A stretch of DNA of 64,000 nt. It comes from Octopus vulgaris. Its lineage: Eukaryota. Position 1 is the stretch's first letter. Every line of letters starts with the position of its first letter. The position numbers were made by a program, and so were the translations under genes. Where the stretch lies: the NCBI GenBank assembly GCA_951406725.2, contig OX597818.1, positions 80,228,001-80,292,000 of the forward strand. The letters run 5' to 3'. The notes beneath the pieces are model-generated. The model saw nothing but the letters and a program-made list of their open reading frames with translations, was not told the origin of the DNA and did no database searches. Positions 568-24,040 of this stretch are shown piece by piece.

Positions 568-805
568 GTAACATCTTGTTGACATTTACTTTGTATTCTC
601 ATTTAGTAGTTGTCTTGATAAAGAATAAGAATTTTTATTATATTCGAATCTTTTACCCAAAATTTCCGGTTGTAACAGTATTTAGTTGCGTGTAATAGAA
701 ATCAATTGACATAGTCTTGGTGGATGGGATGTCACACACATTCATATATATATCAATATATATATATATGCACATGACTATTTAATATACACATGAAAAA
801 TAGAC

Positions 806-845
<40 letters not shown>

Positions 846-1701
846 CTGTAATATGTACATTCTTATAATACACATACATAACACTTGACCATGTTTACTG
901 TGCGACCCCTCCCTTCATCTTTTAAAAATATAATTATTCAGTTCGTTAATTCATATAATATTATATATATCAATATATAATTTTCGTTAAGTATTTCAGT
1001 GGAATAACCAGTAACATTATTATTATTCCAGTGAATAATAGTTTGATGTTACTCTGTCTTCATTATATTTCCGCTCAACACCGCCCTCAATCAAATAATG
1101 ATTAATTAATTCTATCAGGAACCACCTGAAGATTTTACCCTTCAACCTTCCTAATTTTTTAAAATTAATTTTTATTCGTTGTGCCTTATTTCACATTCTC
1201 ATTCTTCGTCAAATGTCGTTAATGCACTTTGAAGAGGCATGAATGTCACAAGTTCCTATTTCACAGCATTAAAAAAAGAAGAATCTGGGCGTCTTCTTGG
1301 ATGAAGAAAGCTTATTGGCAGTAGAAGTGGTAGAGTGTTTGCTGGTTGGCTGATTGGATGCTTTTACAATATTTCGTTAGCTTCGTACCCTATGGTTTTG
1401 AGTTCATATCCCATCAGAGTCAACTCATTGTTTAGATTCTGTTTGTTTCGAGTGATAAAAGTTATATAATAAAATCGATTCGAAAACGTCAGCTATGACT
1501 CCTCTCCCACCTCAAAATTGGTCGTGTGTTTCATCAAACGGCATCAATATATATATATTTGGCATTCTTTAACTGCAAAGAACAATCATCCTATGTAAAA
1601 CCGAAAAAAATAAAATAGTTTACAAGGATAGACAACTAGATTCAATTATTATATCGCTTCCCTTTTAACAAATATGGCCTCTCTCCTTTTACTCAAAGTG
1701 G

Positions 1702-1750
<49 letters not shown>

Positions 1751-3446
1751 TGAAGAGATTGACGTAAACAACCTGCACTTCGATTGTCAGTTTGTATTGT
1801 TTCCGTCAAAATATTTTGTAAACAATTCCTATAGCTTTGACTTTTAGATGTTTTTTGTTGTTGGCTGCAAGAATGTCACCTACTGCGATTCGTCTCTATT
1901 CTGATATACACACACACACACACACATATATATATACACATATATAAAATTCGCTCGAGTTCTTCGTAATTTTTACATCCTGTATTAAAATTGAAAGATA
2001 ATAATTCTCAAGAGTTGCAGCCCATATTAGACAAGCTATGGCGATTATTTATAGAAATTTGCTGGTGGCACTAAATATTGTAATACATTAAAAAATAATT
2101 TTTTAAATGTAGTGATTTATCAGTTCTTTTTCTTATAAGAGCTAATCAGAGTACAATATACTCCTGTATAGTAACTTGTTTATAAATCGAAACACTTCAT
2201 TTTAAAATTATCCAAGTCACTAAGCATATTGCTTTTTTTTTTTTTTGTCTAAAAGTGATATTTTATTAGCATTTTCTAACATCATGTTCGCTTAGCACCC
2301 ACCTTCAAATGCAGTACCAACATTTTTAAATGTCTGCTGTATCTTCGGATATCCTTTGGCTCATCATAAATTTAAGTTGTCGATAGTTGTTGGGCAGTAG
2401 GTGTGCACAATGTTTCTGATCCATAAAGGTTTTTATATGATTGGTGCACGTGTGTGATTAGATAGTCAATTTCTTATGTAGATGCTTTCAGGAAACGTAT
2501 ACGAGGGCGATAAAAAGACGAGTCTTAAATGATGTTCAAAATCCGGTCACGTACCTTTCATCCATCGCCGCCGATAACTTCACCATTTTATAAGGAAAAT
2601 TATAAGTTCCATCATCATAGCCACCATATTACTATCTATAAATACCGTTACTAAAGGCGAGCCGACCATAGAGCCTTTACATATTTGCTAGAAATAGCAG
2701 ACAAATCTCACTCATCTATACTGATTGTGCGAATAAAAAGGAAGGACATATATTAAACCTCAGATATTCGGTTTGGGGTGGGGAGAGCATCGGTAATATC
2801 TTAGATCACAAGACTGAATAGAACTGACCTGGAGCTTATGGGCAGCTACTTTTAATATGAAATCTAAACCGCTGGTACAAAGGTTTAAATTTGATGGAAC
2901 TGAAAATGTATAGGATTCTATCGACCGAGCAATAATTTTATCGATCTTATAGGCATTGACAAATATAGTCGATTCCAACAGGTTTTGAATTTAGAAACTA
3001 GAATGAGTAGAACTTAAGAGAGAGAGAACGAAAAATACCGTTGTAAGGTATACCATTTGGCACTCTTTCAATAGTCATATAATTGTAACCAAAAGCTTTC
3101 CTTTTCGACAAAAACATTAAGTGAAATATCGGTTAAAGAATTTAGAAAACTATCGATAAGTTTTTGTTGTTATATTTAAATATAAAACAGAAAGGAGTTT
3201 TTTGACCCTAGTTGTAAAGGATAAAGAATCAATAAGTTTGCCACGCCCTCCGAAGGCATTTTGTTACTAATACGAAAATACGGAAATTGCTATTACTTGT
3301 ATTGGCTTTTGTTCTACTTAGACATTGTTGTATTAATCGTTAGTGTTATTACTTGGAGAAAATATTTATTTGCAGAATTTTCTTTCTTTTTTTTTTTTGA
3401 TAGAGGCAAAATTCTTTTTATCTCTCTCTCAGACCACCATAGCACA

Positions 3447-3520
3447 TACACACGCAGCTACGCAAACATTTATATACACACACACGCAGCTACGCAAACA
3501 TTTATTATATACACACACAC
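3447..3520. repeat. Two-copy ~33-bp tandem repeat
   Basis: acacacgcagctacgcaaacatttat twice. Confidence 0.8.
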
Positions 3521-3991
3521 AGGCACAATGTTTTATTATCTGCGAGCTTTGTAATTTGATATGTCCGGTTGAAATTACATTCTCAAGGGATAGATAAAGA
3601 GAGAGGAAGCATGTAAGAATTTTGAACATTAATTTTGAAAACTTATGTATCCGGTAGGCGCAGGCGTAGTTGTGTGGTTGAGAAACGTACTTCCGAATCA
3701 TGCTGTCTCAGGTTCAGTCCCGCTACACATCTTTGGCAATTGTCTTCCACTTAGCTTCAGGCCAATTAAGTCTTGTGTGTGAATTTGGTTGATAGAAACT
3801 GAATAAAAACTCGTGTCCAACGTCTATCTATCTATTTAGCTATGTATCTGTCTAGCTAGTCCCGTCTGTGTCCAGCCCTGTGTGTCTAATAAAGAAACAT
3901 CTAGCCATCTACCTACCTATCTAGCTAGCTTTTTATCCAACCTACCTACGTGTCTGTCTATCTGTCTATATAAAATCTACATAATAGATAT

Positions 3992-4190
3992 ATAAGCATG
4001 GTAAATTTAACCATTTCTCCGTAGACTGAAAAAAAAAAATCAATCTTAATCAATTTCAGAATCTCATCAGGTTCTCATCAAAGTGGTCTACATCACGTAA
4101 CCAATCTCAGAATTAACTACCCTGTTGATATACGCAACAAATCTAGTAGCCTCACAGAACTGGAGCTTCTAATTTGCACACCATATTTAA
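3992..4190 (-). mobile_element. ~200-bp hammerhead-bearing repeat, decayed homolog of 43452-43648
   Basis: Minus strand gatgtagaccactttgatgagaacctgatgagattctgaaattgattaagattga aligns to gatgcagatgcctctgatgagaatttaataagatttgaaaatcgattaaggctga; both flanks also align. Confidence 0.7.
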
Positions 4191-4237
4191 GACTTTATAT
4201 GTATGTATAATACACACACACATATATGTACACATAA

Positions 4238-4389
4238 GTGCAGGCGTGACTGTGTGGTAAGAAGCTTACTTCCCAATGACATGGCACTTGAGTAAGTGTC
4301 TACCACTATAGCCTCAGATCAACCAAAGCCTTGTGAGTGGATTTAGTAGATGGAAACTGAAAGAAACCTTTTGTATATATGTGTGTGTG

Positions 4390-4427
<38 letters not shown>

Positions 4428-4633
4428 TATATTTGTGTGTCTGTCTCCATGCCATTGCTTGACAACCAATGCTGGTGTGTTTATGTCCGCATAACTTAGT
4501 GGTTCAGGAAGAGAAACCAATAGAATAAGTACTAGGCTTACAAAAAATAAGTCCTGGGGTCAATTTCTTCAACTAAAACCCTTTAAGGCAGTGCTCCAGC
4601 ACGGCTGCTGTCAAATGACTGCAACAAGTAAAA
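4238..4633 (+). mobile_element. tRNA-derived SINE copy
   Basis: Homologous to 31567-31965. Confidence 0.8.
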
Positions 4634-5640
4634 GTATATATATATATATATATGTATACACACACACACATATAATGTGGACTTCCCTGCCCACCCACCT
4701 TTTCTGACTCTCTAGTCCTATTCTCCCTCTTTTCAGCTGGAGAAGCTATGTATCTTCTCTTCAGCAAGGCACTTCTTTCTGTCTTTCTATCATACATTCA
4801 CCTTCTTCAATACTACACCCTTACTTAATTGAAGGAGTCTTATCTTGTGAGATACTTGATAGTGTCACTAGTGCTGGTGTCATGAAACAAAGCACCCAGT
4901 ATATTCTGTAAAGTTGTTGGCATTAGGAAGGGCATCCAACCAGTGACACCAAATCACAGCAATTATGTTAACTTGTCCAAGGTGCTTTGCCATGGGACCG
5001 AACCCCAAACCATATGGTTGGGAAGCAAATTTTTTAACTGCACGGTCACCCTGTACCTCACAGCCACATCTGTGCTATGTATGATAGATTTTCTGACATG
5101 TTTCATGGTCTTATCAGCTTTCAACTAGAGACTGGGTCTTTAGGTTTCTGTGCACTACTTTTGGGCAGTAATAACTCCTTCATTTCCTCTCCTTAATTAC
5201 AGTTAGCCAGTGTATTAAACACGGATGACTTGGTGGAACAGGTTGTGGGACAACTGGCCGAGAGGTCACTAGTATCTTGCCTCTTCCAGCAACCATTGCA
5301 TCCATGTCCATCCACTTGCCTTAAATGGTTTAAATCAATTACATATACATAATATGATGGTAAAAACTGTATGTGAAGCTTAAAATTGACATACAGTTCA
5401 AGTGGTTTTGATGGCTCCAGCAGGTTGATATGTTCAACATATATAAAGTCAGACTGTTTGAGTGCTGCTTGAATGACCCAATGGTTGAAAGGGCTTACTA
5501 ATCACTCTTTAGGTAAAGTTGTGTGTGTGTTGATTTATATATGAGCACAAGCATGACTTTGTGCTAAGAAGTTTGCATTCTAACCATATGATCTTGGCTT
5601 CAGTTCCACTGCATGGTACCTTGGGTGAGTATGGTACCAG

Positions 5641-5868
5641 CGGTGAGCTGACAGAAACGTTAGCATGCCGGACGAAATGCGTAGCCGTATTTCGTCTGCT
5701 GTTACGTTCTGAGTTCAAATTCTACCAAGGTTGACTTTGCCCTTCATCCTTTCGGGGTCGATAAATTAAGTACCAGTTACGCACTGGGATCTATGTAATC
5801 GACTTAATCCATTTGTCTGTCCTTGTTTGTCCCCTCTGTGTTTAGCCCCTATAGGGTAGTAAAGAAAT
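5641..5868 (+). mobile_element. MetaSINE-like element nested in another SINE
   Basis: B box GAGTTCAAATT; ccttcatcctttcggggtcgataaattaagtaccag domain; 17-bp TSD tggtaccttgggtgagt (5614-5630, 5869-5885). Confidence 0.8.
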
Positions 5869-6872
5869 TGGTACCTTGGGTGAGTGTCTTCTACTATAGC
5901 CCCAGGACAACCAAAGCCTTCAGAGTGGATTTGGTGGTCACAAACTGAAAGAAACCTGTCATGTGTGTACATATATATATTTACATATATAATTTGTGTG
6001 TGTTTTACTGTTTCCTTGCTTTGACTTCATGTGATTGCTGTCAAGGAATATCACTATCTTCCATGAAAACATGTCTGGTCATGAGGAATATTACCTTACA
6101 TGGAAGCAGCTGAGGGTTAGCAACAGGAATGATATCCAGCTGTAGAAAATCCACCCCAACAAATTCTGTTAGACCCATACTTGCATGGGTTGCACAATTA
6201 AACAACAATGGTTTTAAATATTATTTCCTATTGACTCTGAGCTGTCTCAGATCTAACCTGTAATGAACACTCTGTTTTAACAATGAGTAACCATGTATTC
6301 AGTTACTACCTGCTGTTAATTTGGCTGAAACATTCCACTGGCACATGCACAATTTAGATCTTAGATTAAATGGATGTGATACTGTGCAACAAGCCATGCT
6401 AGTTGAAGTACAGGTGCAATCCATCTGTTGGGCTTTCACATTGTTTCCATTTACCCAATTTCACTCATAAAATTCGGGGTGACCTGTAAATTCAAACTTT
6501 GTATGAACTTTAAATATTTTGGACACCACTAAGTTATAAAATTATAGACACAGTACTTCATCTTTATGATGTATATTCTAAGGTAAATCGGCTTGGTGAA
6601 TGCTGCTCCTCTTAATTCCAGCAATGAATTGCACCATTTCATGGTACCTATAAATTTTTACATGAACTGGTTTCTTGGCCACCAATTTTCTAAAGCCCCA
6701 GGGAAGTTTAAAAGCCAGTGCTTATCTCTGGCTTCATGGCATTAAGCAAATGATGATAATTATTTTAATCTTGATTTGAATGCTAATCTTTAAAGGCAAC
6801 ATTCCGAGAAAATCTCATTGGACCATACTTCTGTGAGTTGACTTTTTGTATGTATTAATCTATTTCTCTAAT

Positions 6873-7100
6873 TTAACCCTTTAGAAATTAAATGACCGTA
6901 TCTGACCCAAATATTCCACCTTTTTCTATGTTCAAAGTAGCTAAATTCTGCCTTTCACATCTACTCTGCTATGTCATTTTAAAAATAAGCAATCACATCA
7001 TCAAAACCTCAAAGCTATGAAATAATGGAAGATTAATTCTAGACAGTGTGAATAATTAAGCATTACATTTAACTGTGTAACCTGAATGCTAAAAGGTTAA
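6873..7100. mobile_element. piggyBac-type TTAA MITE
   Basis: TTAA-ccctttag ... ctaaaagg-TTAA; relatives at 9359-9579, 16591-16813, 44148-44516, 45987-46212. Confidence 0.75.
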
Positions 7101-7117
7101 TGTAATTAAGCTGTCAA

Positions 7118-7235
7118 TTTCACAGCCATATCATGTTTAAAACACCTATTCTCATCCAATCATTGAGATTATGCAACATGAAGCCTAGTTAGTATTTAGA
7201 TGGATTACTGCTTGTGAAACCTAGGTATTGTAAGC
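7118..7235 (+). pseudogene. Full-length decayed 5S rRNA copy (possible SINE head)
   Basis: 118 nt colinear with the metazoan 5S consensus (cagccatatcatgtttaaaacacctattctcatccaatc...gcctagttagtatttagatgg...ctaggtattgtaagc); many CpG->TpG/CpA changes; degenerate A and C boxes. Confidence 0.9.
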
Positions 7236-7440
7236 AAAACTTTTAATGGCAGTGCCCCAGTATGGCTACTGCCTCTGGCTGAAAAAATAAAAGAATGAAG
7301 AATTTGGGTTACTAATACTGTGTTTTGCTTGTGTGTTTAACTTTATCACTGAAGTCTACTATTTCAGTGGAATTACCAACAGGCTTATCATATTCAACTG
7401 TAGTTGAGAGAAAAATTATCCTCTGTTATTTTGTTAAAAA

Positions 7441-7863
7441 TAGGTGCAGGTGTGACTGTGTGGTTAAGAAGCTTGCTTCCCAACCACTTGGTTCTGGGTT
7501 CAGTCCAACCGTGTGGCACTTTGGGCATCCTCTGCTATGGCCCCAGGCTGACCAGAGCCATGCAAGTGGATTAGGTAGGTGTAAATTGAAAAACACCTAC
7601 TGTATATATGCGTGCGTGTGTGTGTTTTGTCTTCTTGTCTCGATATCATGTGATAGTTGCAAACGAGTGTCACCACCATACAGTAGTATCCTTCATTTCC
7701 AATTTTATGTGAAAACATGTCCAGCCATGGGAAAAATTTACCTTATTTGGGAACAGGTGAGGGTTGGTGACAGGAAGGACATTAAGCCATAGAAAATCTA
7801 CCTCAACAATTTCCAGCCAACCTATGCAGTGATGTAAAAGTAGTCTTAATGTTGATGATGATG
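7441..7863 (+). mobile_element. tRNA-headed SINE with RTE-type tail
   Basis: Same head as the 31567 family, different body, (GAT)n tail as in the RTE; similar copies at 12605-13023 and 14360-14790. Confidence 0.7.
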
Positions 7864-8423
7864 GGTTTGTCAAAAAGAAATGGGTGGAATAAAGGTTTTC
7901 ATTGACTATTCTGAAATATATGTGGCTCTGGTTGATCTGAGCTGTTATCATTATCATCATTGTTTAGCATCTGTCTTCCATGCTGGCATGTATTGGACAG
8001 TTTGACAGGAGCCTGCACTAAACTTCTGTGTTGGTTTTGGCATGGTTTTTACAGCTGCATGCCTTTCCTAACACCAAGCACCAGTAGAGTGGACAGAGTG
8101 CTTTTTACATGGCATAAGCACAGGTAAGGTCAGTTTTGTTATGGTTTTTACAGCTGGATGCCCTTCCAAACGCTAACCACTTTACAGTGTGGACTGGATG
8201 CTTTTTACATGGTACCAACACTGATAGGTTCACCAAGTAACTTGCAAGACAAAGATCTTTTGAGAGGAATGTGACAGGGGCATTGGGAGAGAAAGACAAA
8301 GTTCAACTGAGAGGATCTTGTGTCAGATGATGAAAAGTTCAAGTGTGATAGAGTGGGTCAATGCAAACTTAAAAGAGGTATTCTCATAACTGTAATGATT
8401 TGGTTTTATTAAAATTACTACAA

Positions 8424-9218
8424 TTTGACCTAAGGAGCATCAGTTGTGGCGTGCAAGTGAGACGTTTGTGCTGGTATGGTCATGTAGCGAGAATGGATGA
8501 AGATAGTTGTGTGAAAAAGTGCCACACCCTAGCGGTTGAGGGAACCTGTGGAAGAGGTAGACCCAGGAAAACCTGGGACGAGGTGGTGAAGCACGACCTT
8601 TGAACTTTAGGTCTCACCAAGGAAATGACTAGAGACCGAGACCTTTGGAAGTATGCTGTGCGTAGGAAGGCCCGGCAGGACAAGTGAGACCATAACCCGT
8701 GGCCTCTACCTGGGACGTAGCCAGTCCACTTACACATACCTTTCCTTCTTGTGACACAAACCCTACTTGTGAAGACCTGTTGAGGCAAGTGAAAATCGAA
8801 ATCGATCAACATCAATGGAAATTGTAGCTGTGATACCAGTGCCGGTGGCACATAAGAGAACCGTCCGAACGTGGCCGTTGCCAGCGCCGCCCTGACTGGC
8901 CTCTGTGCCGGTGGCACATAAAAAGCACCATCCGATTGTGGCCGTTGCCAGTCTTGTCTGGCCCCCGTGCCGGTGGCACGTAAAAAGCACCATCCAATCC
9001 TGGCCGTTTGCCAGCCTCGTCTGGCACCTGTGCAGGTGGCACATAAAAAGCACCCACTACACTCACAGAGTGGTTGGCGTTAGGAAGGGCATCCAGCTGT
9101 AGAAAGACTGCCAGATCAGACTGGGCCTGGCGCAGCCTACTGGCTCCCCAGACCCCAGTTGAACCGTCCAACCCATGCTAGCATGGAAAACGGACGTTAA
9201 ACGATGATGATGATGATG
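8424..9218 (+). mobile_element. RTE-clade LINE 3' fragment with 3' UTR and (GAT)n tail
   Basis: RRLCWYGHVARM...GTCGRGRPRKTWDEVV C-terminal motif; tail ...catggaaaacggacgttaaac(gat)n. Confidence 0.88.
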
Positions 9219-9358
9219 TTCTAACACCTTATATTGATATAAAATATTAACATTCTGCATTATCAGTTTACTTGTTTCAGTCATTTGACTGAAGCCATGT
9301 TGGGGCACTGCTTTGGAGGGTTCAGTCTAACAAGTCAACTTTAATACTTATTTTTTCT

Positions 9359-9579
9359 TTAACCCTTTAGCATTTAAACTGGCCATGTCTGACCCAAATA
9401 TCCTACTTACTTATGTGCAGACTGGCCTGATCTGGTATGTCACACCTATCCTACAATGTCATTCTAAGGAAAGTTACATCATCCAAATCTCAAAGCTACA
9501 AGATAATGCACGATTAATTCAAAATAATACGAATAAATAAGCATTACATTTGACAGTAATAGGAACACTAAAGGGTTAA
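9359..9579. mobile_element. piggyBac-type TTAA MITE inserted into a SINE
   Basis: TTAA-ccctttagc ... actaaaggg-TTAA; interrupts a minus-strand SINE. Confidence 0.8.
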
Positions 9580-9734
9580 AGTCTGGTACTTGTTCTGTCA
9601 GTCTCTTTCACCAAACTGCTAAGTTATTGGCAACATAAACAATCCAGCACAGAATTTCAAACAGTTGGAGGGAACAAATAAAGACACATATGCATATATG
9701 CAGAGATATAAATATGTATTTATAATATAATAAA

Positions 9735-10090
9735 TGACTGTATGAAAAGAAGCTTGCTTCCCAACCACTTGGTTCCAGGTTCAGTCCCACTGCAAGGCAC
9801 CTTGGCCAAGTGTCTTCTGCTATAGCCTCAAGCCAACCAAAGATTTGTGGGTGTATTTGGTAGACAGAAACTGAAAGAAGCCTGTTGTGTGTGTACATTG
9901 CATGCCTTTGTGTCTGTGTTTGTCCCCCATCACTGCTTGACAACCGGTGTTGGTGTGTTTAGCAAAAGAGACTGATAGAATAAGTATTAGGCTTAAAAAT
10001 AAGCCCCAGGATTGATTTGTTCAACTAAAACCCCTCAAGGCGGTGCTGCAGCAGGGCTGCAGTCAAATGACTGAAACAAGAAAATAAAAA
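9735..10090 (+). mobile_element. tRNA-derived SINE copy
   Basis: Homologous to 31567-31965. Confidence 0.8.
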
Positions 10091-10320
10091 AAAAGAATAT
10101 GTATATATAAAATATAGGGTAGTGATTTTTTTTTTTTAGAAAATTCACTACCAGTGGCCCAGCATGTATAAAAAGTCAATAGACAACATTATCTCAATAT
10201 GTACATTTAAACAGGCAGTTTTTACATGCTAGAAGAAGTAGTCAAAATGACCAAAACCACATTTAAAAGCAATCTTCAAAAGGAATGAAAAATACAAACT
10301 TTCACCTTGTTTTTTAATCT

Positions 10321-10393
10321 GGTCAGACCTAGGTTTCAAAATTTTTTTAGCAAATGAAATAATTTGCTAGGCGAAATTTCTCATCAGTGACTG
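10321..10393 (-). ncRNA. Type I hammerhead ribozyme motif (intact core)
   Basis: Minus strand reads CAGUCA-CUGAUGA-[GAAAUUU..UAGCAAAU/AUUUGCUA..AAAUUUU]-GAAA-CCUAGG-UC^UGACC; GUC triplet; palindromic stem III. Confidence 0.85.
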
Positions 10394-10576
10394 CGCCATA
10401 ACACTAACATATAATTAAGAAACGAATAACGTGTCCCATCGTTATACATTATCATTTTTCAAATTCACCGCGCAAGTGCAGTTTCAGTTGGCTTGCATGG
10501 TGAATTTGAAAAATTATAATGTATAACGATGAGACACATGTTATTCGTCTCTTAATTATATGTTAGTGTTATAGCG

Positions 10577-10650
10577 CAGTCACTGATGAGAAATTTTGCC
10601 TAGCAAATTATTTGATTTGCTAAAAAAATTTTGAAATTTAGATCTGACCG
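10577..10650 (+). ncRNA. Type I hammerhead ribozyme motif (sense copy)
   Basis: CAGUCA-CUGAUGA(10583-89)-long stem II-GAAA(10633-36)-UUUAGA-UC^UGACC; AUC triplet. Confidence 0.8.
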
Positions 10651-13600
10651 GATTAAAATAACAAGGTAAAAGTTTTTATTTTCCATTCCTTTTGATGATT
10701 GCTCTTAAATGTGGTTTTGGTCATTTTGACTACTTCTAGCATATAAAAACTGCCCATTGAAGGCAGTTTTCTTTTTTGTTTAAATGTACACTATTTTATA
10801 TTGAGTATATATATATGAACTTCCATACACTTTCTGACCTGGAGTTAAAGTGGACACTAACTCAAGGTAGGACTAAACCCAAAACCACATAGTTACAGAG
10901 AGAGATTCTAAACTACAGAGCCATACCTTGAAGTACAACTATTCTTGAATGAAGCTCTGCCACTAGTTTAAATATACATCATGCACAAGTAGGTAAAATA
11001 TTTTAAGTACTCTCCCACAACGTTTCTAGTTTGGTTATAGCAAGTTGAAGAGTCCAAGTGTTTGGGAAATTTGATGGTTTTCATATAAAGAGCTATTGAT
11101 ATGTCACTGAATTTCCTAAATGCCGTATGTCATTCAATCTACTTAAGATTTAAAACTATGCATTATGATCCAGTGCAATGTGTATGTGTGTCATTTTAAG
11201 ATTTACTTTTCCTTGCTTGCGTGAATCGGACAAACTAAGTTGAGGCAGATTTTCTATAGCTGGATGCTCATCCTGCTGCCAACCCATACCTATTTCCAAA
11301 CAAGGTAACATTTTACCCTAATTTGGACATATTTACATGGGATATTGCTAACAAACAGGAGTACTTGTATGATAGATGTTAGTATGCAATTAGCATGCAA
11401 TGTCAAAACAAGGAGGTAAAAATATATACATGAAGTGGTTGGCATTTGGTTGGGCATCCAGCTGTAAAAAACATGCCAAAACTGACCTAATCTGTGCTGG
11501 TGCCACATAAAAAGCACTCGGCTCACTCTGCAAGGTGGTTAGTGTTAGGAAGGGCATCCAGCTGCAAAAAAAAGCATACCAAAATGGACAGAGGTATGAT
11601 GTAGGCCCATCCAGCTCCTGTCAACCTGTCCAACCCAGCATGGAAGGTCGACATTAAATGATGATGAAGAAAGGCATTTGGCCATAGAAAATTAAACCTC
11701 AGCAAATTCCATCTGACCCGTGCAAGTTTGGAAAAGTGGATGTTAAAATGATGACGATGATATATATAATCACACATAAATATGATTGCTGTTTTTCAGT
11801 TGACACATCACTCACGAAATTGGGTTGAGGCTATAGTAGAAGACACTTGCTCAAGGTGCCCCCACCTCCCACCCTATGTGTGTATGTGTATTTTACACTG
11901 TGTTGTCCAATGCAATATGGTTTGTGAATCTTTAGTCTGTTTCAGCCATTGGACTGCAGCTATGCTAGGACGCTACCATGAAGGGTTTTAGTCGAATGAA
12001 TTGATCCCTGTACATTTTTAAAACCTGGTGCTTGTGCTATTGGTCCCTTTGGTTGAACTGTTAAACAAACCAAAACTGGCCATCAAAAAGTGATGGGGAA
12101 CAAAGACACACACATTGACATACACTTATGTATAAATATGATTTGATTCTTTGAGTTTCCACCTACCAAATCCACTGACATAGCTTTGGTCTGCCCAGAG
12201 CTATAGTGGGATTGAATTCAGAACCATCTGGTCGGGAAGTGAACTTCTTACTTCACCACCATTCCTGCAATGTTTTAAACTGCTGCACATGAAATAACTT
12301 GTTTGATCTGTTCGTCATGGATGTAAGACCATCAGTTAAATCCCTGCCAATATAGTCCCCTCTGTCAGTACACATACAATCTCTTTACCTCTTTTAATAA
12401 AACATACTAACAAAGTATATTTCATTTTCATTTGCCAAAGCAGACATTGAAGACCGATGAAGTCATCAGACTCATTGGATTCTGTTGACCTGTCCAACAG
12501 GTACCAGCAGAAAAGATAAGACATTAAATGATGATGATATTAAAGCTGCACTTGTGCATTTTTCAATTAGCCTTGTATTACTCAAATTAATTTCTAACTT
12601 ATAGACACAGGTATGGCTATGTTGTTATGAAGCTTGCTTCTCAATCATGGATTTGGGTTCAGTTCCATTCTATTGCACAGCACCTTGGGCAAGTGTCTGC
12701 TATAGCCTTAGCCAACCAAAGCTGTGTGAATGGATTTGGTAGGTGGAAACTTAAAGAAGTCTGTTGTGCGTGCATGTGTGTTTATGTGTACCCTTGTTTT
12801 GATATTATGTGATGATTGTAAGTGAGCATCACCATCATACAAGTGATGTCATTCATTTCCTGTCTTCTATGAAAACATATCTGGCCATGGGTTAATATTA
12901 CTTTGCCTGGAAACAGGTGAGGGTTGGTGAAATGAAGGACATATGGTCATAGAAAATCTGCCTCAACAAATTCTGTTTATTCCATGCAAGCATGGAAAAG
13001 TGGACATTAAAATGATGATGATGAGACTGCTAGTCAAAACGTCTCAGTAGGACTTATATATCCACAACTTCAGAAGTTTCTTTCCACCATTGTTTTAAGG
13101 ATCACTCAGCATACTTCAACACATACAGTGGTTTATTATGTGGGATTGTGTGGCAACCTTATGTGTTGTAACTCCATAGTGCAGTTTGTTCTTGTTGGTG
13201 CATAGACCCTGGTTGTAGCTAACCTGTGAAGATGAAAGACATGTTCTCTCTCTTCTTTCTCACTTAACCATGAAATAAAAATTGACCCAATTGCACCATG
13301 TCCCCAGTATAGTAGGAAAAGCCTAAACCAGTGACACCCAACATGGAGCATGGGATCCAAATTTTTTTCTTTTTTTTTTTTTATAGTGGGACGTGGAATT
13401 GAAAATCTTTTTTTGTTTTCTTAGTTGATAATGTACTTCTTTTTTATACTCAATACTTAATAAAAAAAGGTTACCAGTAGATTCTTTCATATTAAATAAT
13501 TGTGATAAAATATTAAAAATAAAGTCGTTTTTTCCCAACTGATGGTGGGCATTTCCCTGGAAAGTTACAGTGGGGTCTAGGGGAAAATAGGTTCAGAAAT

Positions 13601-13970
13601 GTAATCTCTACCAGATTCCCATTAAAGCGCTAATGAACACACTTGTAGAAAAAGAACATAAATATCAAAAATAGAAAACTGATCACATTGCAACATTGTA
13701 GTCAAGTGTGTTTATGACTCCTTGTTAATGGTGTCCCCTGTAACTGGGATTTGCTTTCATTTTTAATTGAAAAAAAAAAAAATGGTGATGAAATGAGTGT
13801 GATGAGCCCATAACTTCATCTGGTAAATGAACAAAACCTAGATTCTTTACAGTTGAGGAAATTGTTAATGATATTTATTCTTTGGATGATGAATTTACAC
13901 TTACAAAGACAATGAGAGTGATTCAGACATTCAAACTAGTGAAAATGATGAGGAAAGTAGCGATTTCAGT

Positions 13971-14143
13971 GAACAAATACAGTAGTTAAAAGACAAGCCT
14001 ATCATTGTTATTCTCCTGAATTTTTTTGTGATTTTGTCATTTGTTTGCTTGCCATGAACAAATATGGTATTTGAGAGATAGGCCTATTATTGTTATTCTT
14101 CTGAATTTTTTTTTTTGCGATTCTGTCAGCTAGTTTGCCTGCA
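13971..14143. repeat. Degenerate two-copy ~86-bp tandem repeat
   Basis: gaacaaata...gcctat.attgttattct.ctgaattttttt...tttgc.tgc twice. Confidence 0.7.
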
Positions 14144-16330
14144 ATTATTATTCTTGAGCTGTGTATGCAACTATTTTTCTTTTACTGAGGAGCCCATATT
14201 GAGGTTAAAGTTAGACACAGGGGCCCAGGTCAGAGATGGTTAAGAAAGGCCTAGTTGCCCTAGACAACATTTGGTCTTGGAAGGTGAAGGGATGGTAATT
14301 GATTGCTATTAAAAAAATGTCATTCCTCTGCTGTTTGGATTCTGCTATAACCATGACACTAGTGTGTCTGGCTCTGTGGTTAAGAACTGTGCTTTGCAAC
14401 TAATTGGATTTGGATTCAGTCCCACTGCTTGGCAAGTGTCTTCTACAGTATCAGGCTATCAAAGCTTTGCAAGTGGATTTGGTAAATGAAACTTGAAGTC
14501 CATCATAAATATATCATCTTCATCATCTGTGTGTGTGTGTATAAAATGTATGTATTGGTGTCTTGTCTTGACATCACATGATGGTTGTACATGAGTGCCA
14601 CTGTCATATAGGCAGTGAGTTTCATTTCTCAATCTTCTTTGAAAACCATGTCTAGTCATGGGAAAAGTCTTACCTTACTTGGAAACAAGTGAAGATTGGC
14701 AACAGAAAGGGCATCTAGCCATAAAATATCTGCCTCTACAAATTCCATCCAACCCATGCAAGGATGGAAAAATGGACAGTAAACCAGTGATGATATACAC
14801 ATATGTACACTGGTGGATGTTAATAAAGGCATGGTTGCTCTCACCTCCCATTTCTCAGTTGTATAAGTGAGAGAAATTGATTGTTCTATGTAGCCAAGTT
14901 TAAAAGCACCTTTTACTTTTTCATTTGTTTGTTTCTGTATTTAAAAGTACATCCTTCATCAGTCTCTAGCTAATTTCTGTTTCTGCTACTGATAACAGTA
15001 AATAACTGAGATAATGGAGAAATCCATTTAATTCAATATCTAAGGCTATAGTTATTTTTTAAAAACTGATATATATATATACATACACAAACACACAGAT
15101 ACATGCATTGTCACTTTCTCTCTCTCACCACATACTCCCATCATTTCAACTAATTCCTAAACAACAAAGAGATACTTGTTGAGAGAAGTAGCTCTTATAC
15201 CAATGCTCTTCGTGTCTCTTATGTATGGGTTTGGCTTTTAAATAAGATATATTTTTTCTTTTTACTGTAAGCACTGTAGAGTCATGTTAAGCTTCCAGTA
15301 AGCTGCATCTGTTATGTAGGTTCACTACCTGGCTAAGCCGTTTATTTATTTTTCACTTACATTCTCTAACTATGCTCCATAGAGCTATTGGAGAGAGACG
15401 AGTACCTGCCTGTTTGATTTAGTCATAAAGAACAATTTTCCTATTCTTTTACTTGTTTGGGCGGGGGGTTTATAGTATTTTTCTTGTGTAGTATATTTGA
15501 ACTTTTGAGTGATAGGCTTAATATGCCTCCACCTGTTTCATGGGTGCCTTTAGCAGGCTTTACTCTGTTGCAAGCAGTGAAACCAGGCTCTTCCTTTCTT
15601 TTCAAACTATGTTTTTCCCTGCTAGCACAGAGATATTCAGTCAGGTTGGGCATCAACTATAACAATCTCACCAATCTGAAGTACCTGCATTTCATGAGCA
15701 TTTTTTCCTCTACCTTCCTCTAATGCCATTATGAAAAAAGGCATTAACAGTTATGAGATCCAATTGTTGTTGAATACTAATTAATGATTAATTAGTTTTA
15801 AAATATCTAATAATTAATGTGAAATTTGTATCTGATAATTATGGATTTTTGATTCAGCTCTGAGCCAAAAGCTTAGAGAGAGGGGAAATATGATACTGTA
15901 TTTGATGGCATATGAGATGTCATTACCAAAAAAAAAAAAAAAAGAAGCATCCTCTTTACCCCTGCTTTAGTACACTAAAATTTTTTCTGAATATGTGCTG
16001 CTGAAATTGTAGTGTGCATAATATTCTCGTGCATTTTTTTTACCATCAAGTATTGTAGTTCTTTCACAAGACTATTGGTTGCACATTTGAAAAGAATAGG
16101 ATTTCAGTGAGACACGGAAGTTTACTTTCAAACTGCACACGACACTACTGTTTTTGTTAGTTATAAATGACAATTACTCTGTTTTAATGTAAAGAGTAGC
16201 ACAAATTTAGAGGAAGAGGAAATTTAATTTTTTCTAATATTTGACTATTAACCCATCCTCAAAGGATGAAAGATAAAGCTAACCTTAGGAGAATTTCAAC
16301 TTAGAATATAAAGGATACTAACTAAAAATA

Positions 16331-16576
16331 TTTCATTTTTGGATTTGGTTTGCAAGATTCTTTATGTGAGTTTGTGTGTTGAAGCATATTCTGTTGTGTC
16401 TGGGGAGAGTCATTCTCTTTTAGTGCCTTTTAATTTAACACATTCACCAGTTCAAAAGGTTGCAAGATGCAACGAAAATTTTAGAAAAATATATAAGTAA
16501 ATGAGTGGAAACTTTACCTGTGAGTGTGTTAAATTATAAGGCACTAAAAGAAAATGACTCTCTCCAGACAACAGAA
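16331..16576. mobile_element. Inverted-repeat insertion with 12-bp flanking direct repeat
   Basis: ~60-bp arms 16387-16447 and 16520-16578; TAACTAAAAATA at 16319-16330 and 16577-16588. Confidence 0.65.
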
Positions 16577-19500
16577 TAACTAAAAATACTGTAACCCTTT
16601 AGTATACAGATTACTCAGTCAAATGTAATGCTTATTTCTTCACATCATTTAAAATTAATCCTGCATTTTCTTGTAGGTTAAGTGTAAAAAGTTGGATCTG
16701 GTCATTTTGAACATAAAACAGGTGAAATATTTGGGCCTGATGTGGCTGGCTTAAACATGAGATGAACAGAGTATTTGGGTCAGATATGGCCCGTTCAAAT
16801 ACTAAAGGGCTAAAACTTTTTGTTCAGTGCCCCACTAATTTTAATTGCTTACACAGGTACAAGCTCACACTGGTAATTTAATTTGACTCAAGGTTCAAAA
16901 GCAAAGTTAACAGAATTTGAACTCAGAACAATATAACTAAATGATGAAAGTGTTTTGTCTGCTGGTTAATTGATTCTTTCATATAGGCACAAGGCCACAG
17001 TTTTGAGAGGAGAGAAGCTGTAGTCAACTCAGTGGCAATTAAACTTGGATTGAGTTTAAAATCAGAGTGCAATGAAATGTCACTCTCGACTGTCTTTATA
17101 TAAAAAATGAGATGGTCAAAACCATGTGATTGAATTTTGAAGAAACTGAAAGAAGTGTTGTGTTTTATCATTATAATCATTTTACCACCAAGTTTTCCTT
17201 TGTTTGCTATCCCTCACCTGTTATCAAGCAAGGTGATATTTTCCTATCCTTATACATGTCTCATGGAAGACTGGAAACAAATTCACTTATATGACTGATA
17301 TTTGCTTACAACCATCATATGATGTCAAGACATGAGTGCGCACGCGTGCACACACACACACGGGACAGCTTTTTTGTTTTTCCATCAACCAAATCCACTC
17401 ACAAGGGTTTTTATTGGCCTGAGGTTAAAGTAAAAGACACTTGTCCAAAGTGTTGTCCAATGGAACTGAACCTAAAACTATGTGGTTCCAAAGGAAACCT
17501 CTTAACCACACAGTTTTGGAGGCATAGAAAGGAGTATGTGACACTGACAACTGGAAATAACTGGACGATATCAGTATCTGTTGCTCTCACATCTGGGGCG
17601 ATTTTGTTTCACCTTTGAAGTATGCTGTGTTTTTTTTTAACACTATATGTCTTTAAAGGCATCTCCCCTGGATGAAATACTGAAGCTTTCTAGTGTTTAA
17701 CAACACACTCTTTAAATATTGATATTGATAATGTGTGTGTTTGACGTGTATGTGTTTACACCTCATCTTGACATGGCTGGATAGTTGTAAAAGAGTGACA
17801 CCATTACATAAGCAAGGTTATTTCTTTCCAATTTCCCATCAAAACATGTCTGTTTCATCATCATGTAGCATCTGCTTTCCATGCTGGCAAGGGTTAATTT
17901 GACTGAAACTTGTAAGCTGGAGAGCTGCACCAAGTTCCAGTCGGATTTGGCATGGTTTCTATGGATGCCCTTCTTGATGTTTGTGAGGAAATATTACTCT
18001 GTTTGAAAACAAGTGAGAGTTGGTGAATGGAATGGTGTCCAGCCTTAGAAAATATGCCTTGAGACATTCTGGCTGACCTACACAAGCATAGAAAAGTGAA
18101 TGTTAAAACGATGTGAGTAATGATGGGTCTAAGCAAAGATCTTAGCTAAAGAGTCCTGAGGTTACAGACTTTACTCATTGCAAATTGTTTATTGGATGTT
18201 TTAAAGCTAAAGATAGCTTTGTTGTGAAATATCTTTATTCACTGGGATTGTTCACTGCTGTGATCTAAGCTATTAATTTCTGAATAGACTACATCCACTG
18301 GGATTGTTTGTTATTAATGATGAACATTCATTACTACCTATCCTAGATCTTGGTCTACATATATTCTTATTAATCAAACTAAGCCAGAATGTCTGTAATT
18401 GGCAGAAACAGGCTCAGACACACGCAGATAAGTAAATTGTAAATGCTTGATGTGTGTTGTTGTTTAGCCCTTGGTTAATCTAGAATTGAGTAGGCCTATG
18501 ATCAGGCAATCTAGCCATGGTTTCCCTGTCTATTTGTAAACAACATGTCCTAGACTATTCTCAAAATTGTCCTTTTTTTTTTAAGATGGTAGGTTGTGTG
18601 TGTGAGTGAGTATTAACTCTTTTTAAAATTTTTTTTACCATATTTCTGTTGAAATACATTGCTTTTGTTTCTATTAATTTATAAGATAATGGAGAATTTA
18701 GTAAAATAATTTTATCACTGTTGAGCTGCCATGACAAATTTGTCCAGAAGGTAATAGCACCAGATCCTCCCTTGAGTTTAAGCAGAGAGGTGGTCAGCTG
18801 ATGTGGCTCATGACAATCAAAGCAGATATGGAAATTGTTTTTAAGAATCCATCAGGAAAATGTAATGATGATTACCTCTGGACTTTATGAAGGGGTGCCT
18901 GAGGACAGTATTCCCATGACTATTCTCAGGAATAGTGGGTGGCAAAAATAGGTGGATGGATGGATAAAAATTGAAAATGATGGTGGATATGGTCAAATAA
19001 TTTACTTATAGAAATTGTATTTGTTTTGACTCTTTACATTGAGTTCAGATCCAGCCAAAGTCAACTTTAGCTTTAATCTTTCTGAGGTTGATTAAAATAT
19101 AGTACTAGGTAAATACCAGGGGTTTATATAATCACCTGCCAACTCCCTCCCAATATCTGACCTTGTGTTTGTTAGAAACAATTATTCTTGCCATTATTTT
19201 ATTCTTTTATCTTTTACTTGTTTCAGTTATTGAGGGACACTGGTTTGAAGGGTTTTAGTCAAACAAATTGACCCCCAGTACTTATTTTTTTAAGTTTGGT
19301 ATCTTTTGCTGAACTGCTAAGTTACAGAGACATAAACATACCATCAATTGTCAAACTGTGGGGGTGACTAACATAGAGACACACACACACAAATATATAT
19401 ATGATTGGCTACCACATAGTTTCTGTCTACCAAATTCACTCACAAGGCATTAGTTGGCCCAGGGCTAGTAGAAAACACTTAGTTGCAAAACAAACTTCTT

Positions 19501-19611
19501 AACTACACAGCCATTCCTGCTTATTAAAATTGTCTTTGTTCGGGCTCTTTGTTCTTAGTTCAGGACCTTACCATGGTCAACTTTTTCATTCTTCTGGTGG
19601 GGTCATTATAA

Positions 19612-19841
19612 TTAACCCTTTTGATACCAACCCACCTGAGACTGCCTCTGGCTCTGTAGTACGAATGTCTTGTTTTCAAAAGTTCTCAATTAAAATCATC
19701 CACCAAACGTTAATCACAATTTATGTTCCTAACACTAGCTGAATGGTAACTAAGTTATTTTACTAAATACTTTGTTATATTTAAAATTAATTGAAAGAAA
19801 CACAGAGCATCTCAACAGAAGTATGGTAACAAAAGGTTTAA
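19612..19841. mobile_element. Second TTAA MITE family
   Basis: TTAA-cccttttgatacc ... ggtaacaaaagg-tTTAA; interrupted relative at 30276-30802. Confidence 0.7.
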
Positions 19842-20087
19842 ACACTTCACTACAACCCACAAATTTCTAGCCATGTATCTTTATTAGAAACAATTATTCT
19901 TTTCATGTCCACAACTGTTAACAAAGTTCATAATGGCCAACTCATTAGGTCTTACACTTGAATCTACAGTATGTGTGAAATCAATAACAAACACTCTACA
20001 TCAGTCGTGAGGAAACTGTAATCCATAGGACTTTCTGACTGGCACACCTAACAAAAGAATTACCTTGAATATTTTTTTTTTAGTATT

Positions 20088-20155
20088 GCAGTTTGCCTGA
20101 TGATGAGCTATGTCTCATGTGGCCTACTTCTTGAAACAAAATTGTCCATGCCTGC
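20088..20155 (+). ncRNA. Degenerate hammerhead ribozyme motif
   Basis: CTGATGA(20097-20103), imperfect hairpin, GAAAC-AAAATT-GTC(20133-20146); stem I only partial (GCAG/CTGC). Confidence 0.5.
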
Positions 20156-22658
20156 TCTTTATGGTTGTTTGATTTGCTAGAAATAGTAGCCAGATTTCCC
20201 ACTAAGTCACACCTCAGTATTTAAAAACAACACAAAATAAGGTAGTCCTGACATCCCTGAAAGAATGTGGTCATAATTGCTAGCATGCCTGTTTTGATCA
20301 TAAATCTGTTGGATTAGGTTTCATCTGGACTAAACAATAACTGCTGACGGTTTAATTATCTCAACAGGACACTTATTCTGCATTGTATCAGTTCATGTTG
20401 CCATTGAAGAAATAGATAACAAAAATTACCTGTGAGTGTTTTTCTAGATTGACTGTGTCCTATATCTATACAGGAGTGGCACATACATTATTGCATCAAG
20501 GCACATGCGTGTCTGTGTTGTAAGAATTTTGCTTCCTAACCATATAGTCTTGGGTTCAGTCTAATGTGTGGCATCTTGAGCAAATGTTTTCTACTATAGC
20601 CCTGGTATGACAAAAGTCTTGTGAGTGAATTTGGTAGACAGAAACTGAAAGAATCCCATTGTGTGTGTGTGTGTGTGTGTGTTACTGTCTTCCCAGTCTT
20701 CTGTGAAAACATGTCTGATCATGGAGAAATGTTACCCCACCGGGAATACTTTGGCCAGATATACATATGTGCAGTACTATTCACGTGGCAAGTTTTCTAC
20801 AGCCGGATGACCAGCCAGTTTAAATACCAAAGGGTTAAAAAGACAGCCAAAGGGTGTAAGAAGTAGCTTTTTTCTAATGACAAGTTAGAAACTATATAAA
20901 AATACATATATATAAATGTTGAGCTGAATGTCTGGAATCTGACTTTAAGCTAGCTTATCTACCAAAGTGACATGTTTATCAGCACCACCCTTGGAAGATA
21001 ACCACAATAGTTTCGGAATATTTGTCATCACCACCACCACCATCCATCATCATCATTGTAGAAATATTCCTCAGCATGTCATTGTAGTTATCATTACCAA
21101 GTTATATATCCATCCTTCTAGTACCACTATGTCTATTGTGTAATTGTTATTTAGTTGAACAAATGGTCCATGCATTTTTCGTACTCTACCTCCTCTGATC
21201 ACCTAAAAACAAAATGAAAAAGTCATTTCACCTGTCTACTATAACTTGATCTGTTACAGTAGGTATCAAATTTCAATGTGCTACTGTGTCTCGAGAGGAG
21301 AAAATGTTTTTTGCTTCCCTCAAATTATTGTCAATTAATGTCCACTTTTCCAAGCTTCCATTGATCAGTTGGAATTTGTTGAGGTTGATTTTTCAATGGC
21401 TGGATGCTCTTCCTGTCACTTGTATGAAAGTAATGCTCATTTACAATCATTATTTGATGGCAAGACAAAGGTGTAGACTCTCTCTTTCTCTCTCTTTCAT
21501 ACACACCCGCATGATTGCATTTCTGTTTCCATCTACCAAACCCACTCACAAGGCTTTGGTCAGTTGAAGGCTATAGTGGAAAATACTTGCCCAAAATGCC
21601 ATGGTTGAGAAGCAAGCTTCTTAACCACACAGCCATGCCTGCATGTTGGATCAAAATGGTACTGGACTCATGACTCGAGTTAACTCCTTATGTACAAAAA
21701 TGTCACAGCAGCAGTTTATTAGTTAGGTTGTATCTTAGATACACAAGCCTAACTCTCTTATATATTTTAACATTTAGAAAAGGGTTAGGATTACAACTTT
21801 GGTTATCTTTCTACTAATTCTGGTGACAGCCAATGTAATGAGATAGTGGGAACATGTAGATGCTACTGCTCCTACTATTGCCATTCTTGAAGAAAGTCAA
21901 GCAAATATTTGAGTGCTATCTGTAAGTGCAGTGCCTATGTCTGCCTTAAGTCAGGTCTACAACTAGAGTATGCATAATATTGTGCAGTAGTATTATGCAC
22001 TAGCAAGTTGTGTTGGTGTTGTACAGGAGTGCAGTGGATAATCTTACAATTCTATTGTAAAATATACCAATCTTCAATCTGGTTTGACACCACAATTGAG
22101 TAGTTGTGGTAATAGTATGGACTACATTTTGATAGCTATCAGGGTATATAGTATGGAGGAAAGCAGTGTATACAACTAAAGATTTGTCAATTTGGATATG
22201 CCATGCTTCAGTGAAGCTACATTATGCTGTTTATATTACTTTGCTGGTTGGCGAAGGAAATTGTACCTTGTATGTGTGTGGTGCAGTGACACAAATTATT
22301 GTAAAAAACAATGGAATTTGGCTCGCTGTGGACCAAATGTTATATGCGGATTTTGAGGACTGCCATGTTTGCAGCTACTCAGCAACAGTAAACTAGCAAT
22401 ACATCATTTTCATTTCATGATAGTCTGTCATCATTAACAGGTATGACTAACTGACTGTCTAACATCCAGGTGTTTGGTAAATTTGGTAAAGCTAAATTTT
22501 GTCTCGTATGACACCATGTTGCCCTCTTCCTTTTAGACTCTCTTTCTCTCTCTTTCCTTCCCTACCCTCCTCTTCTTTCTGTCCAAAGTAGACTATGATA
22601 TTGAAGTATTTCTGATATTCTCTTTGTTGCGACAACTTGTATATTATTAAATTTTTGG

Positions 22659-22702
<44 letters not shown>

Positions 22703-23976: not shown

Positions 23977-24040
23977 CTGAAGATAATATCAAATTTCATC
24001 ATCCATGCTCCTCCTGGAGAGTTCAATGAAGTTTTCAATG
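23977..24040 (+). CDS. CAPZA: CAPZA exon 2 (LKIISNFIIHAPPGEFNEVFN)
   Basis: Diagnostic HAPPGEFNEVFN motif; polypyrimidine tract + ctag acceptor; gtatgt donor; 64 nt. Confidence 0.97.

What the first reader, a model, noticed from the sequence alone, without database searches (positions are those of the whole stretch)
10193..10805. Palindromic intronic element with a hammerhead ribozyme on each strand
Seen: two ~265-bp inverted arms with a 15-nt loop. Each arm has a complete type-I hammerhead core (CUGAUGA, long AU-rich stem II, GAAA, 6-nt stem III, UC, stem I GUCA/UGAC). The minus copy has palindromic CCUAGG and a GUC site. The plus copy has UUUAGA and AUC, so the first stem-III pair changes C-G to U-A and still pairs. 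The plus unit ends in a hairpin (AAAACTGCC-cattgaa-GGCAGTTTT) plus a T-run. Known: type-I hammerheads with short palindromic stem III occur in Penelope-like-element pseudo-LTRs and can cleave as dimers. Inference: this is a non-autonomous, ORF-less PLE/retrozyme-like element that gives a ribozyme whichever strand is transcribed. In CAPZA pre-mRNA the upstream antisense arm could mask the sense ribozyme in long dsRNA, an ADAR substrate in a lineage with heavy A-to-I editing. That would make a possible editing-gated self-cleavage switch.
Basis: partly seen in the sequence, partly recalled or inferred. Interest (0 to 1): 0.85.

Follow-up and report, generated by a model that had tools for sequence, protein, structure and literature searches.

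The report
Head-to-head ribozyme retrotransposon in an intron
The palindrome is two partial copies of a 472-base, protein-less repeat, each carrying a hammerhead ribozyme motif, joined head to head inside an intron; it is likely an old, decaying insertion made by Penelope-type retrotransposon enzymes, not a regulatory switch.

Summary
Observation confirmed; span and meaning corrected. Both hammerhead cores and the inverted arms are real and lie in the inferred first coding intron of CAPZA. The element runs about 10109-10805: two 5'-truncated copies of an ORF-less 472-nt monomer joined head to head; the '15-nt loop' belongs to the minus copy. The family was found in 95 of 99 stretches examined; 47 are head-to-head. 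3' ends fall at two fixed sites, and 26 of 28 scorable pairs have one long and one short end, mostly in (TA)n. These are the published insertion signatures of Penelope-like elements (PLEs). An active autonomous PLE in this genome shows the same two-end pattern, but no autonomous partner sharing sequence was found. The plus arm's U-A pair occurs at chance frequency (1 of 95, 1.4 expected). The arms differ by 6-8%, much like other decaying pairs. The duplex beats the ribozyme fold by 77 kcal/mol, and editing heavy enough to open it would likely hit core adenosines, so the editing-gated switch is unsupported. Verdict: a new retrozyme-like, non-autonomous PLE family. Its value is genomic evidence that such RNAs are likely copied from internal start sites, through the uncut ribozyme. 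No earlier scan note matched.

The parts
10109..10491 (-). 5'-truncated copy of the 472-nt monomer, ending at the long 3' terminus; lacks 22 nt of hairpin A and about 10 nt before the tail
   Evidence: blastn to a natural full period (L030): r121-530 at 10492-10112; deletions
10492..10805 (+). 5'-truncated copy of the monomer, ending at the short 3' terminus in a TA run
   Evidence: r136-459 at 10491-10810; flanks
10579..10648 (+). minimal type-I hammerhead motif: core 10583-10589, helix II 10590-10632, GAAA 10633-10636, decayed stem III, predicted cut after 10644
10322..10391 (-). minimal type-I hammerhead motif with the family's commonest palindromic stem III, predicted cut after 10326
10746..10770 (+). 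hairpin A, about 30 nt before the short 3' end; one pair varies G-C/A-U in the family
10118..10152 (-). hairpin B at the long 3' end; one pair varies A-U/G-C in the family
568..23976 (+). host intron: inferred first coding intron of the F-actin capping protein alpha gene (CAPZA)

Best explanation
The element is two 5'-truncated copies of a 472-nt protein-less hammerhead repeat joined head to head, likely inserted in one event by the reverse transcriptase and endonuclease of a Penelope-like element and likely decaying neutrally since. Shown: monomer length, tandem permutation, variable 5' ends, two fixed 3' ends, one-sided tail, TA-rich flanks, no ORF. Inferred mechanism: a PLE protein binds a tandem or circular transcript, nicks both strands of (TA)n DNA and starts cDNA at two internal sites, each near a hairpin. 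One strand is primed from the long site and the other from the short site, and the two incomplete cDNAs are joined at their 5' ends. Copying runs through the ribozyme site, so the template was uncut or re-ligated RNA. In CAPZA pre-mRNA the upstream antisense copy is predicted to sequester the sense ribozyme in a roughly 280-bp hairpin, leaving it inactive; the hairpin may be edited as a bystander.
For: Period of 472 nt in L030; a full head-to-tail dimer in L121; 30 of 152 arms exceed one period. 95 of 99 stretches hold the family; 47 are head-to-head, 1 also tail-to-tail. 3' ends: 76 of 152 at r430-469, 47 at r510 or beyond, 0 within 5 nt of the cut site; 5' starts are scattered, 3 near the cut against 3.5 expected. 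26 of 28 scorable pairs are long+short, none long+long. 77 of 120 termini have 4 or more TA units against 433 of 5000 random 38-mers. These match the PLE features in 10.1101/2021.04.23.441226 (passages) and the two internal RT start sites and HHR-independent insertion in PMC11167929 (parts 1-2 of 4). A 775-aa RT plus GIY-YIG PLE in this genome has short and long ends in (TA)n, long+short in 3 of 3 inverted pairs seen. The core is about half as variable as background, hairpins A and B each have a double change, and the monomer folds at z -5.6. Arm-arm divergence: median 9.9% in 33 pairs, 7.7% here.
Against: No autonomous PLE sharing sequence with the monomer was found: none in 30 loci of one family (one 20-nt match), none in 19 loci of a second, no in-line ORF in 99 stretches, no shared 5' flank except simple repeats and another high-copy repeat. 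The tail (80-95 nt) is longer than the published 30-40 bp. Helix II closes G-U (37) or A-A (19), G-C in only 2 of 66, and Rfam gives no hammerhead hit. Core conservation is not significant in the set picked by overall similarity (14 against 22.7 expected, resampling p 0.07). Loci were picked by similarity or pattern, many for holding the ribozyme region, so frequencies are not genome-wide and the 111 of 152 read-through count is inflated. The TA count window includes the element's last 8 bases.
Confidence: 0.85

Rival explanations
1. Host-exapted, editing-gated switch: A-to-I editing opens the hairpin, frees the sense ribozyme and cuts CAPZA pre-mRNA.
For: The element lies in a sense intron of CAPZA; both cores are intact; a long duplex is predicted (-376 kcal/mol for 10190-10810). 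Intronic ribozymes that affect splicing exist (CPEB3, PMC10919898, search listing only). Heavy editing in cephalopods is recalled.
Against: The duplex beats hammerhead plus antisense folds by 77 kcal/mol, and by 31 after every A is changed to G; all five core adenosines survive in 6 of 200 trials at 50% and 0 of 200 at 75%. G-U understates the I-U penalty; with a recalled 2.3 kcal/mol per pair, about two thirds of the 48 A's would need editing. The sense copy is the more decayed one in stem III. Both arms are 5.7-6.8% from the family's commonest letters against a median of 6.5%, so no special conservation. Five other loci also keep both cores; L012 has two commonest-form stem III copies.
Confidence: 0.03
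2. Classical non-LTR retrozyme spreading through ribozyme-cut circular RNA copied by rolling reverse transcription, the inversion being incidental.
For: Permuted tandem monomer, type-I hammerhead, no ORF, compact fold fit PMC7229834 (passages). A circular template also explains read-through and arms longer than one period. It overlaps with the best explanation in using PLE enzymes.
Against: No array above about 2 units and no tandem pair with two intact cores among the loci checked (L121's two cores are both decayed). An uncut tandem transcript explains the data equally. Fixed ends and a one-sided tail need PLE-type internal initiation in any case.
Confidence: 0.3
3. MITE or other foldback DNA transposon whose arms are terminal inverted repeats.
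For: Long inverted arms, no ORF, TA flanks.
Against: The two outer ends differ by about 85 nt; inner ends vary from locus to locus; 48 of 95 loci have no adjacent inverted arm; direct tandems occur.
Confidence: 0.03
4. Assembly artefact or later local inverted duplication of a single copy.
For: The arms here are closer to each other (7.7%) than to the nearest other locus (8.3%). No listed contig spans the centre.
Against: Arms differ by 18 substitutions and three indels; the flanks are not duplicated; the minus arm holds family sequence that the plus arm lacks; the geometry recurs in 46 other loci.
Confidence: 0.03

Closest known systems
Penelope-like elements with C-terminal GIY-YIG (Penelope/Poseidon, Neptune; PAc of Anolis, PMC11167929; structure in 10.1101/2021.04.23.441226)
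   Same: 5' truncation, partial tandems, an inverted 5'-truncated copy at the 5' end, a tail on one end only, AT-rich or microsatellite targets, minimal hammerhead, copying through the uncut ribozyme.
   Different: No ORF; whole unit 472 nt; tail 80-95 nt rather than 30-40 bp; no sequence link to an autonomous element found.
Metazoan non-LTR retrozymes (PMC7229834; preprint 10.64898/2026.07.22.740005)
   Same: ORF-less, AU-rich, tandem-permuted monomer with a type-I hammerhead, in a genome with PLEs.
   Different: Dispersed partial copies and head-to-head pairs instead of arrays; monomer slightly above the 150-450 bp range; no tandem pair of intact cores seen; circular RNA untested.
Minimal PLE hammerheads (PMC4209133)
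   Same: Conserved core, short helix I, long helix II, short palindromic helix III suited to dimers; reported low activity alone.
   Different: Helix II region of 43 nt, AU-rich, closing G-U or A-A instead of the usual G10.1-C11.1 (axolotl HHR_Amex2 has U-U there, PMC7229834).
Rfam MIR4371 (RF04276)
   Same: Long hairpin scoring 72 bits.
   Different: Below the gathering score of 110; I read it as a generic match to a long hairpin.

Membership tests
Minimal type-I hammerhead ribozyme | Core CUGANGA, GAAA and NUH in type-I order with helix I | tested here: met
   Both arms, 4-pair stem I; 48 of 77 spanning segments scored intact, some misses being alignment slips
Minimal type-I hammerhead ribozyme | Short palindromic helix III | tested here: met
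   Palindromic in 38 of 77 segments and in the minus arm; plus arm self-pairs only with wobbles, -2.2 against -11.4 kcal/mol
Minimal type-I hammerhead ribozyme | G10.1-C11.1 closing pair (typical, not universal) | tested here: not met
   G-U 37, A-A 19, G-C 2 of 66
Minimal type-I hammerhead ribozyme | Match to an Rfam hammerhead model | tested here: not met
   No hammerhead family at E <= 10 in 8000-13000
Minimal type-I hammerhead ribozyme | Self-cleavage at the predicted site | not testable with these tools
   Needs in vitro transcription
Non-autonomous Penelope-like element | Variable 5' truncation with fixed 3' ends | tested here: met
   123 of 152 arms end at one of two sites; 5' starts scattered
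Non-autonomous Penelope-like element | Partial tandems and an inverted copy joined at the 5' end | tested here: met
   47 of 95 loci head-to-head, 1 tail-to-tail; tandems
Non-autonomous Penelope-like element | Tail on one end only | tested here: met
   26 of 28 scorable pairs long+short; 19 further pairs had an end elsewhere and were not scored
Non-autonomous Penelope-like element | AT-rich or microsatellite target | tested here: met
   77 of 120 termini against 433 of 5000
Non-autonomous Penelope-like element | Sequence shared with the pLTR of an autonomous PLE | tested here: inconclusive
   None with two PLE families (30 and 19 loci); other families in the genome were not compared
Non-LTR retrozyme | ORF-less monomer of a few hundred bases with a type-I hammerhead, in tandem | tested here: met
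   472-nt period; longest open frame 53 codons; full dimer L121
Non-LTR retrozyme | Two consecutive units with complete hammerheads ('active' criterion of 10.64898/2026.07.22.740005) | tested here: not met
   L121 has two decayed cores; four other long loci show one core per strand; sample not exhaustive
Non-LTR retrozyme | Expressed linear and circular monomer RNA | not testable with these tools
   No holder on record as RNA; only contigs available
MITE | Matched terminal inverted repeats around a fixed-length body | tested here: not met
   Unequal outer ends, variable inner ends, solo and tandem copies

The most novel reading that the evidence does not exclude
An ORF-less retrozyme that carries the complete PLE insertion fingerprint: two hairpin-marked internal start sites 160 and about 245 nt past the ribozyme, used one per strand. 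It would be direct genomic evidence that animal retrozymes are mobilised by PLE target-primed reverse transcription through an uncut or re-ligated ribozyme, and would define a 472-nt minimal cargo for a PLE enzyme.
Probability: 0.55. Interest if true: 0.5.

Novelty: new member of a known kind. Interest (0 to 1): 0.3.

Why it matters
The locus itself is most likely an inert old insertion. The family matters modestly. The link between animal retrozymes and PLEs has rested on co-occurrence and pLTR homology in the papers I read (PMC7229834, 10.64898/2026.07.22.740005). Here the insertion geometry of an ORF-less element points to PLE enzymes and shows where they start, in a genome with a very young autonomous PLE that could be assayed. 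Searches for 'hammerhead ribozyme' + octopus and cephalopod + hammerhead + ribozyme listed no paper on such a family; subscription journals, Repbase and supplements were not seen. An editing-gated ribozyme would be far more striking, but I put it at about 3%.

Tried and rejected
Rfam scan: no hammerhead model; the MIR4371 hit is below threshold. Autonomous partner: PLE ORF pieces near family copies in L036, L050, L062, L076 and L124 are not in line with the copy; in L036 and L062, which I read, the ORF is on the opposite strand and separated by a TA run. Two PLE families share no sequence with the monomer. The 400-nt flank shared by L023 and L124 is a common repeat. Four of 40 pattern-picked loci (L041, L055, L061, L065) were chance matches and were dropped; the minus hit in L008 lies far from the element and was dropped from the both-strand count. 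Sequencing runs: no RNA holder listed. Laying X1, X2, X4, X5 gave contigs only, mixed with other family copies, so expression, editing and RNA ends could not be judged. The first core-conservation test (30 against 57.7) was biased by pattern-picked loci and was redone. No excess of 5' starts at the cut site. A search for hammerhead + ADAR + A-to-I listed 3 papers, none on a natural switch by title or abstract start. Three look-ups of earlier scan notes gave one unrelated hit and two blanks. Copy number was not determined: 1937 and 1451 first-look candidates, 40 scored each; 69 pattern hits against 9 in the control.

Full report
1. Observation. The inverted repeat is real: 263 of 281 ungapped columns agree between 10193-10476 and 10492-10805, with three indels. 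A hammerhead pattern run over both strands of the whole window matched only at + 10579-10648 and - 10391-10322. Rfam gave no hammerhead hit at E <= 10 and a below-threshold MIR4371 hairpin match. CAPZA lies on +; coding exon 1 is 529-567 and the next exon 23977-24040, so the element sits 9.5 kb into an inferred 23.4-kb intron. No call named the organism; I take it for an octopus-like cephalopod from recalled repeat motifs.

2. It is a repeat family. One arm found 1937 first-look candidates in the genome, 40 scored, the full-length ones at 85-91%. I fetched 98 other places from four searches and compared them with a natural stretch of L030. With the window, 95 of 99 stretches hold the family. 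L030 repeats with a period of 472 nt, L121 is a full head-to-tail dimer, and the longest open frame in the monomer is 53 codons. Against this unit the window holds a minus copy from 10491 to about 10109 and a plus copy from 10492 to 10805.

3. Insertion geometry. 47 of 95 loci have adjacent head-to-head arms and one also has a tail-to-tail pair. 5' starts are scattered over the whole unit; 3' ends cluster at r430-469 (76 of 152) and r510 or beyond (47 of 152). Of 47 pairs, 28 have both ends at these termini: 26 long+short, 2 short+short, none long+long. The window is long+short. 77 of 120 termini have four or more TA units nearby, against 433 of 5000 random 38-mers (the count window includes 8 bases of the element). 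Craig et al. (10.1101/2021.04.23.441226, passages) describe this for PLEs: 5' truncation, partial tandems, an inverted truncated copy at the 5' end, a tail usually on one end, and microsatellite targets. Frangieh et al. (PMC11167929, parts 1-2 of 4) show that the tail is the stretch between two internal RT start sites, that both strands of AT-rich DNA are cut and extended, and that hammerhead mutants still insert. Here no 3' end lies within 5 nt of the ribozyme cut site (r289), 5' starts there are at chance level (3 against 3.5), and 111 of 152 arms read through it (inflated by how loci were picked). A hairpin lies near each terminus, each with one double change in the family: hairpin A G-C 93 to A-U 18, hairpin B A-U 65 to G-C 10. 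These may each be one inherited event.

4. Machinery. The genome has a very young PLE: a 432-aa RT plus GIY-YIG stretch matched 97 of 97 scored places at 100%, with a 775-aa frame. By eye, 26 of 30 loci show the 3' motif: 7 short ends and 19 long ends about 30 nt further on, in (TA)n; 3 of 3 inverted pairs seen are long+short. Its long end, like this family's, is AC-rich and closes with CCC before the TA run. It shares no sequence with the monomer, nor does a second PLE family. The driver is therefore inferred from geometry, not identified.

5. The ribozyme. In 67 segments picked by overall similarity, core positions differ 14 times against 22.7 expected (resampling p 0.07). In the pattern-picked set the unselected CUGA-GA half differs 5 times against 15.1 (P 0.003) (arms are not independent). 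This fits selection on source elements followed by neutral decay. Stem III is palindromic in 38 of 77 segments. Helix II closes G-U or A-A, almost never G-C. Minimal PLE hammerheads are reported to be weak alone and to need dimers or protein (PMC4209133, passages; PMC11167929); 8 of 9 frog retrozyme dimers showed no cleavage (10.64898/2026.07.22.740005, parts 1-3 of 5). The plus arm's U-A pair is 1 of 95 against 1.4 expected from U-G (11) and C-A (8) singles; C>T and G>A are the commonest changes in the family.

6. The switch idea. In the CAPZA-sense transcript the antisense copy is made first. Its duplex with the 70-nt ribozyme is -98.5 kcal/mol against -8.0 for the hammerhead fold and -13.9 for the antisense strand alone. 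Changing A to G at 10-100% of sites never reversed this in 200 trials per level, and the five core adenosines all survived in 6 of 200 at 50% and 0 of 200 at 75%. G-U understates the I-U penalty; with a recalled 2.3 kcal/mol per pair, about two thirds of the A's would need editing, where the core would rarely survive. The locus is not specially conserved: arms are 5.7% and 6.8% from the commonest letters, median 6.5%, and differ from each other by 6.4-7.7%, against a median of 9.9% in 33 pairs. At 0.0036 substitutions per site per million years (octopus rate quoted in PMC13282606, passages; assumed to apply) that is roughly 9-11 million years. Six of 95 loci keep a core on both strands. RNA data could not test expression or editing.

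7. Verdict. A new family of a known kind: an ORF-less, hammerhead-bearing, PLE-mobilised repeat akin to non-LTR retrozymes (PMC7229834, passages). It works like a non-autonomous PLE; formal membership lacks an identified partner, and ribozyme activity and circular RNA are untested. The two-strand ribozyme is a by-product of head-to-head insertion. Supplements of the cited papers and Repbase were not seen and may already list the family. Interest 0.3.

Noticed in passing
L079-L108, L036:3-1298 (G000, many contigs): A very young RT plus GIY-YIG Penelope-like family: 97 of 97 scored matches are 100% identical over 432 aa, many with an open 775-aa frame, in tandem and head-to-head pairs in (TA)n. 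Its 3' UTR has a hammerhead-like motif with C in place of U4 and a palindromic stem III.
   Followed up: partly
L062:1400-2830, L130-L148: A second large PLE family (150 scored matches at 95-100% aa) whose 3' repeat carries a hammerhead-like motif on the strand opposite to the ORF; antisense hammerheads I recall from endonuclease-less Athena/Terminon elements.
   Followed up: partly
L034, L035, L018, L003: Both arms share changes in the ribozyme region; in L034 both lack the cleavage-site UC. Either a ribozyme-dead RNA was still inserted or the arms were converted later.
   Followed up: no
family-wide: Two subfamilies differ at the base of helix II, G-U (37) against A-A (19) of 66.
   Followed up: partly
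L018:1759-2905: The inverted repeat extends about 240 nt into the flanks on both sides and both arms have the short end, unlike other pairs.
   Followed up: no
G000:C8 86.29 Mb and 86.49 Mb (L001, L007): Two copies share their upstream flank and junction, suggesting a local duplication 200 kb apart in opposite orientation.
   Followed up: no
window 10807-10832: A contig of run X1 lacks 26 nt just right of the element's right junction, a possible polymorphism.
   Followed up: no
window 8034-9230, 9747-10084, 11200-13000: Many copies of other high-copy SINE-like repeats in both orientations, which would give further long duplexes in the same intron.
   Followed up: no
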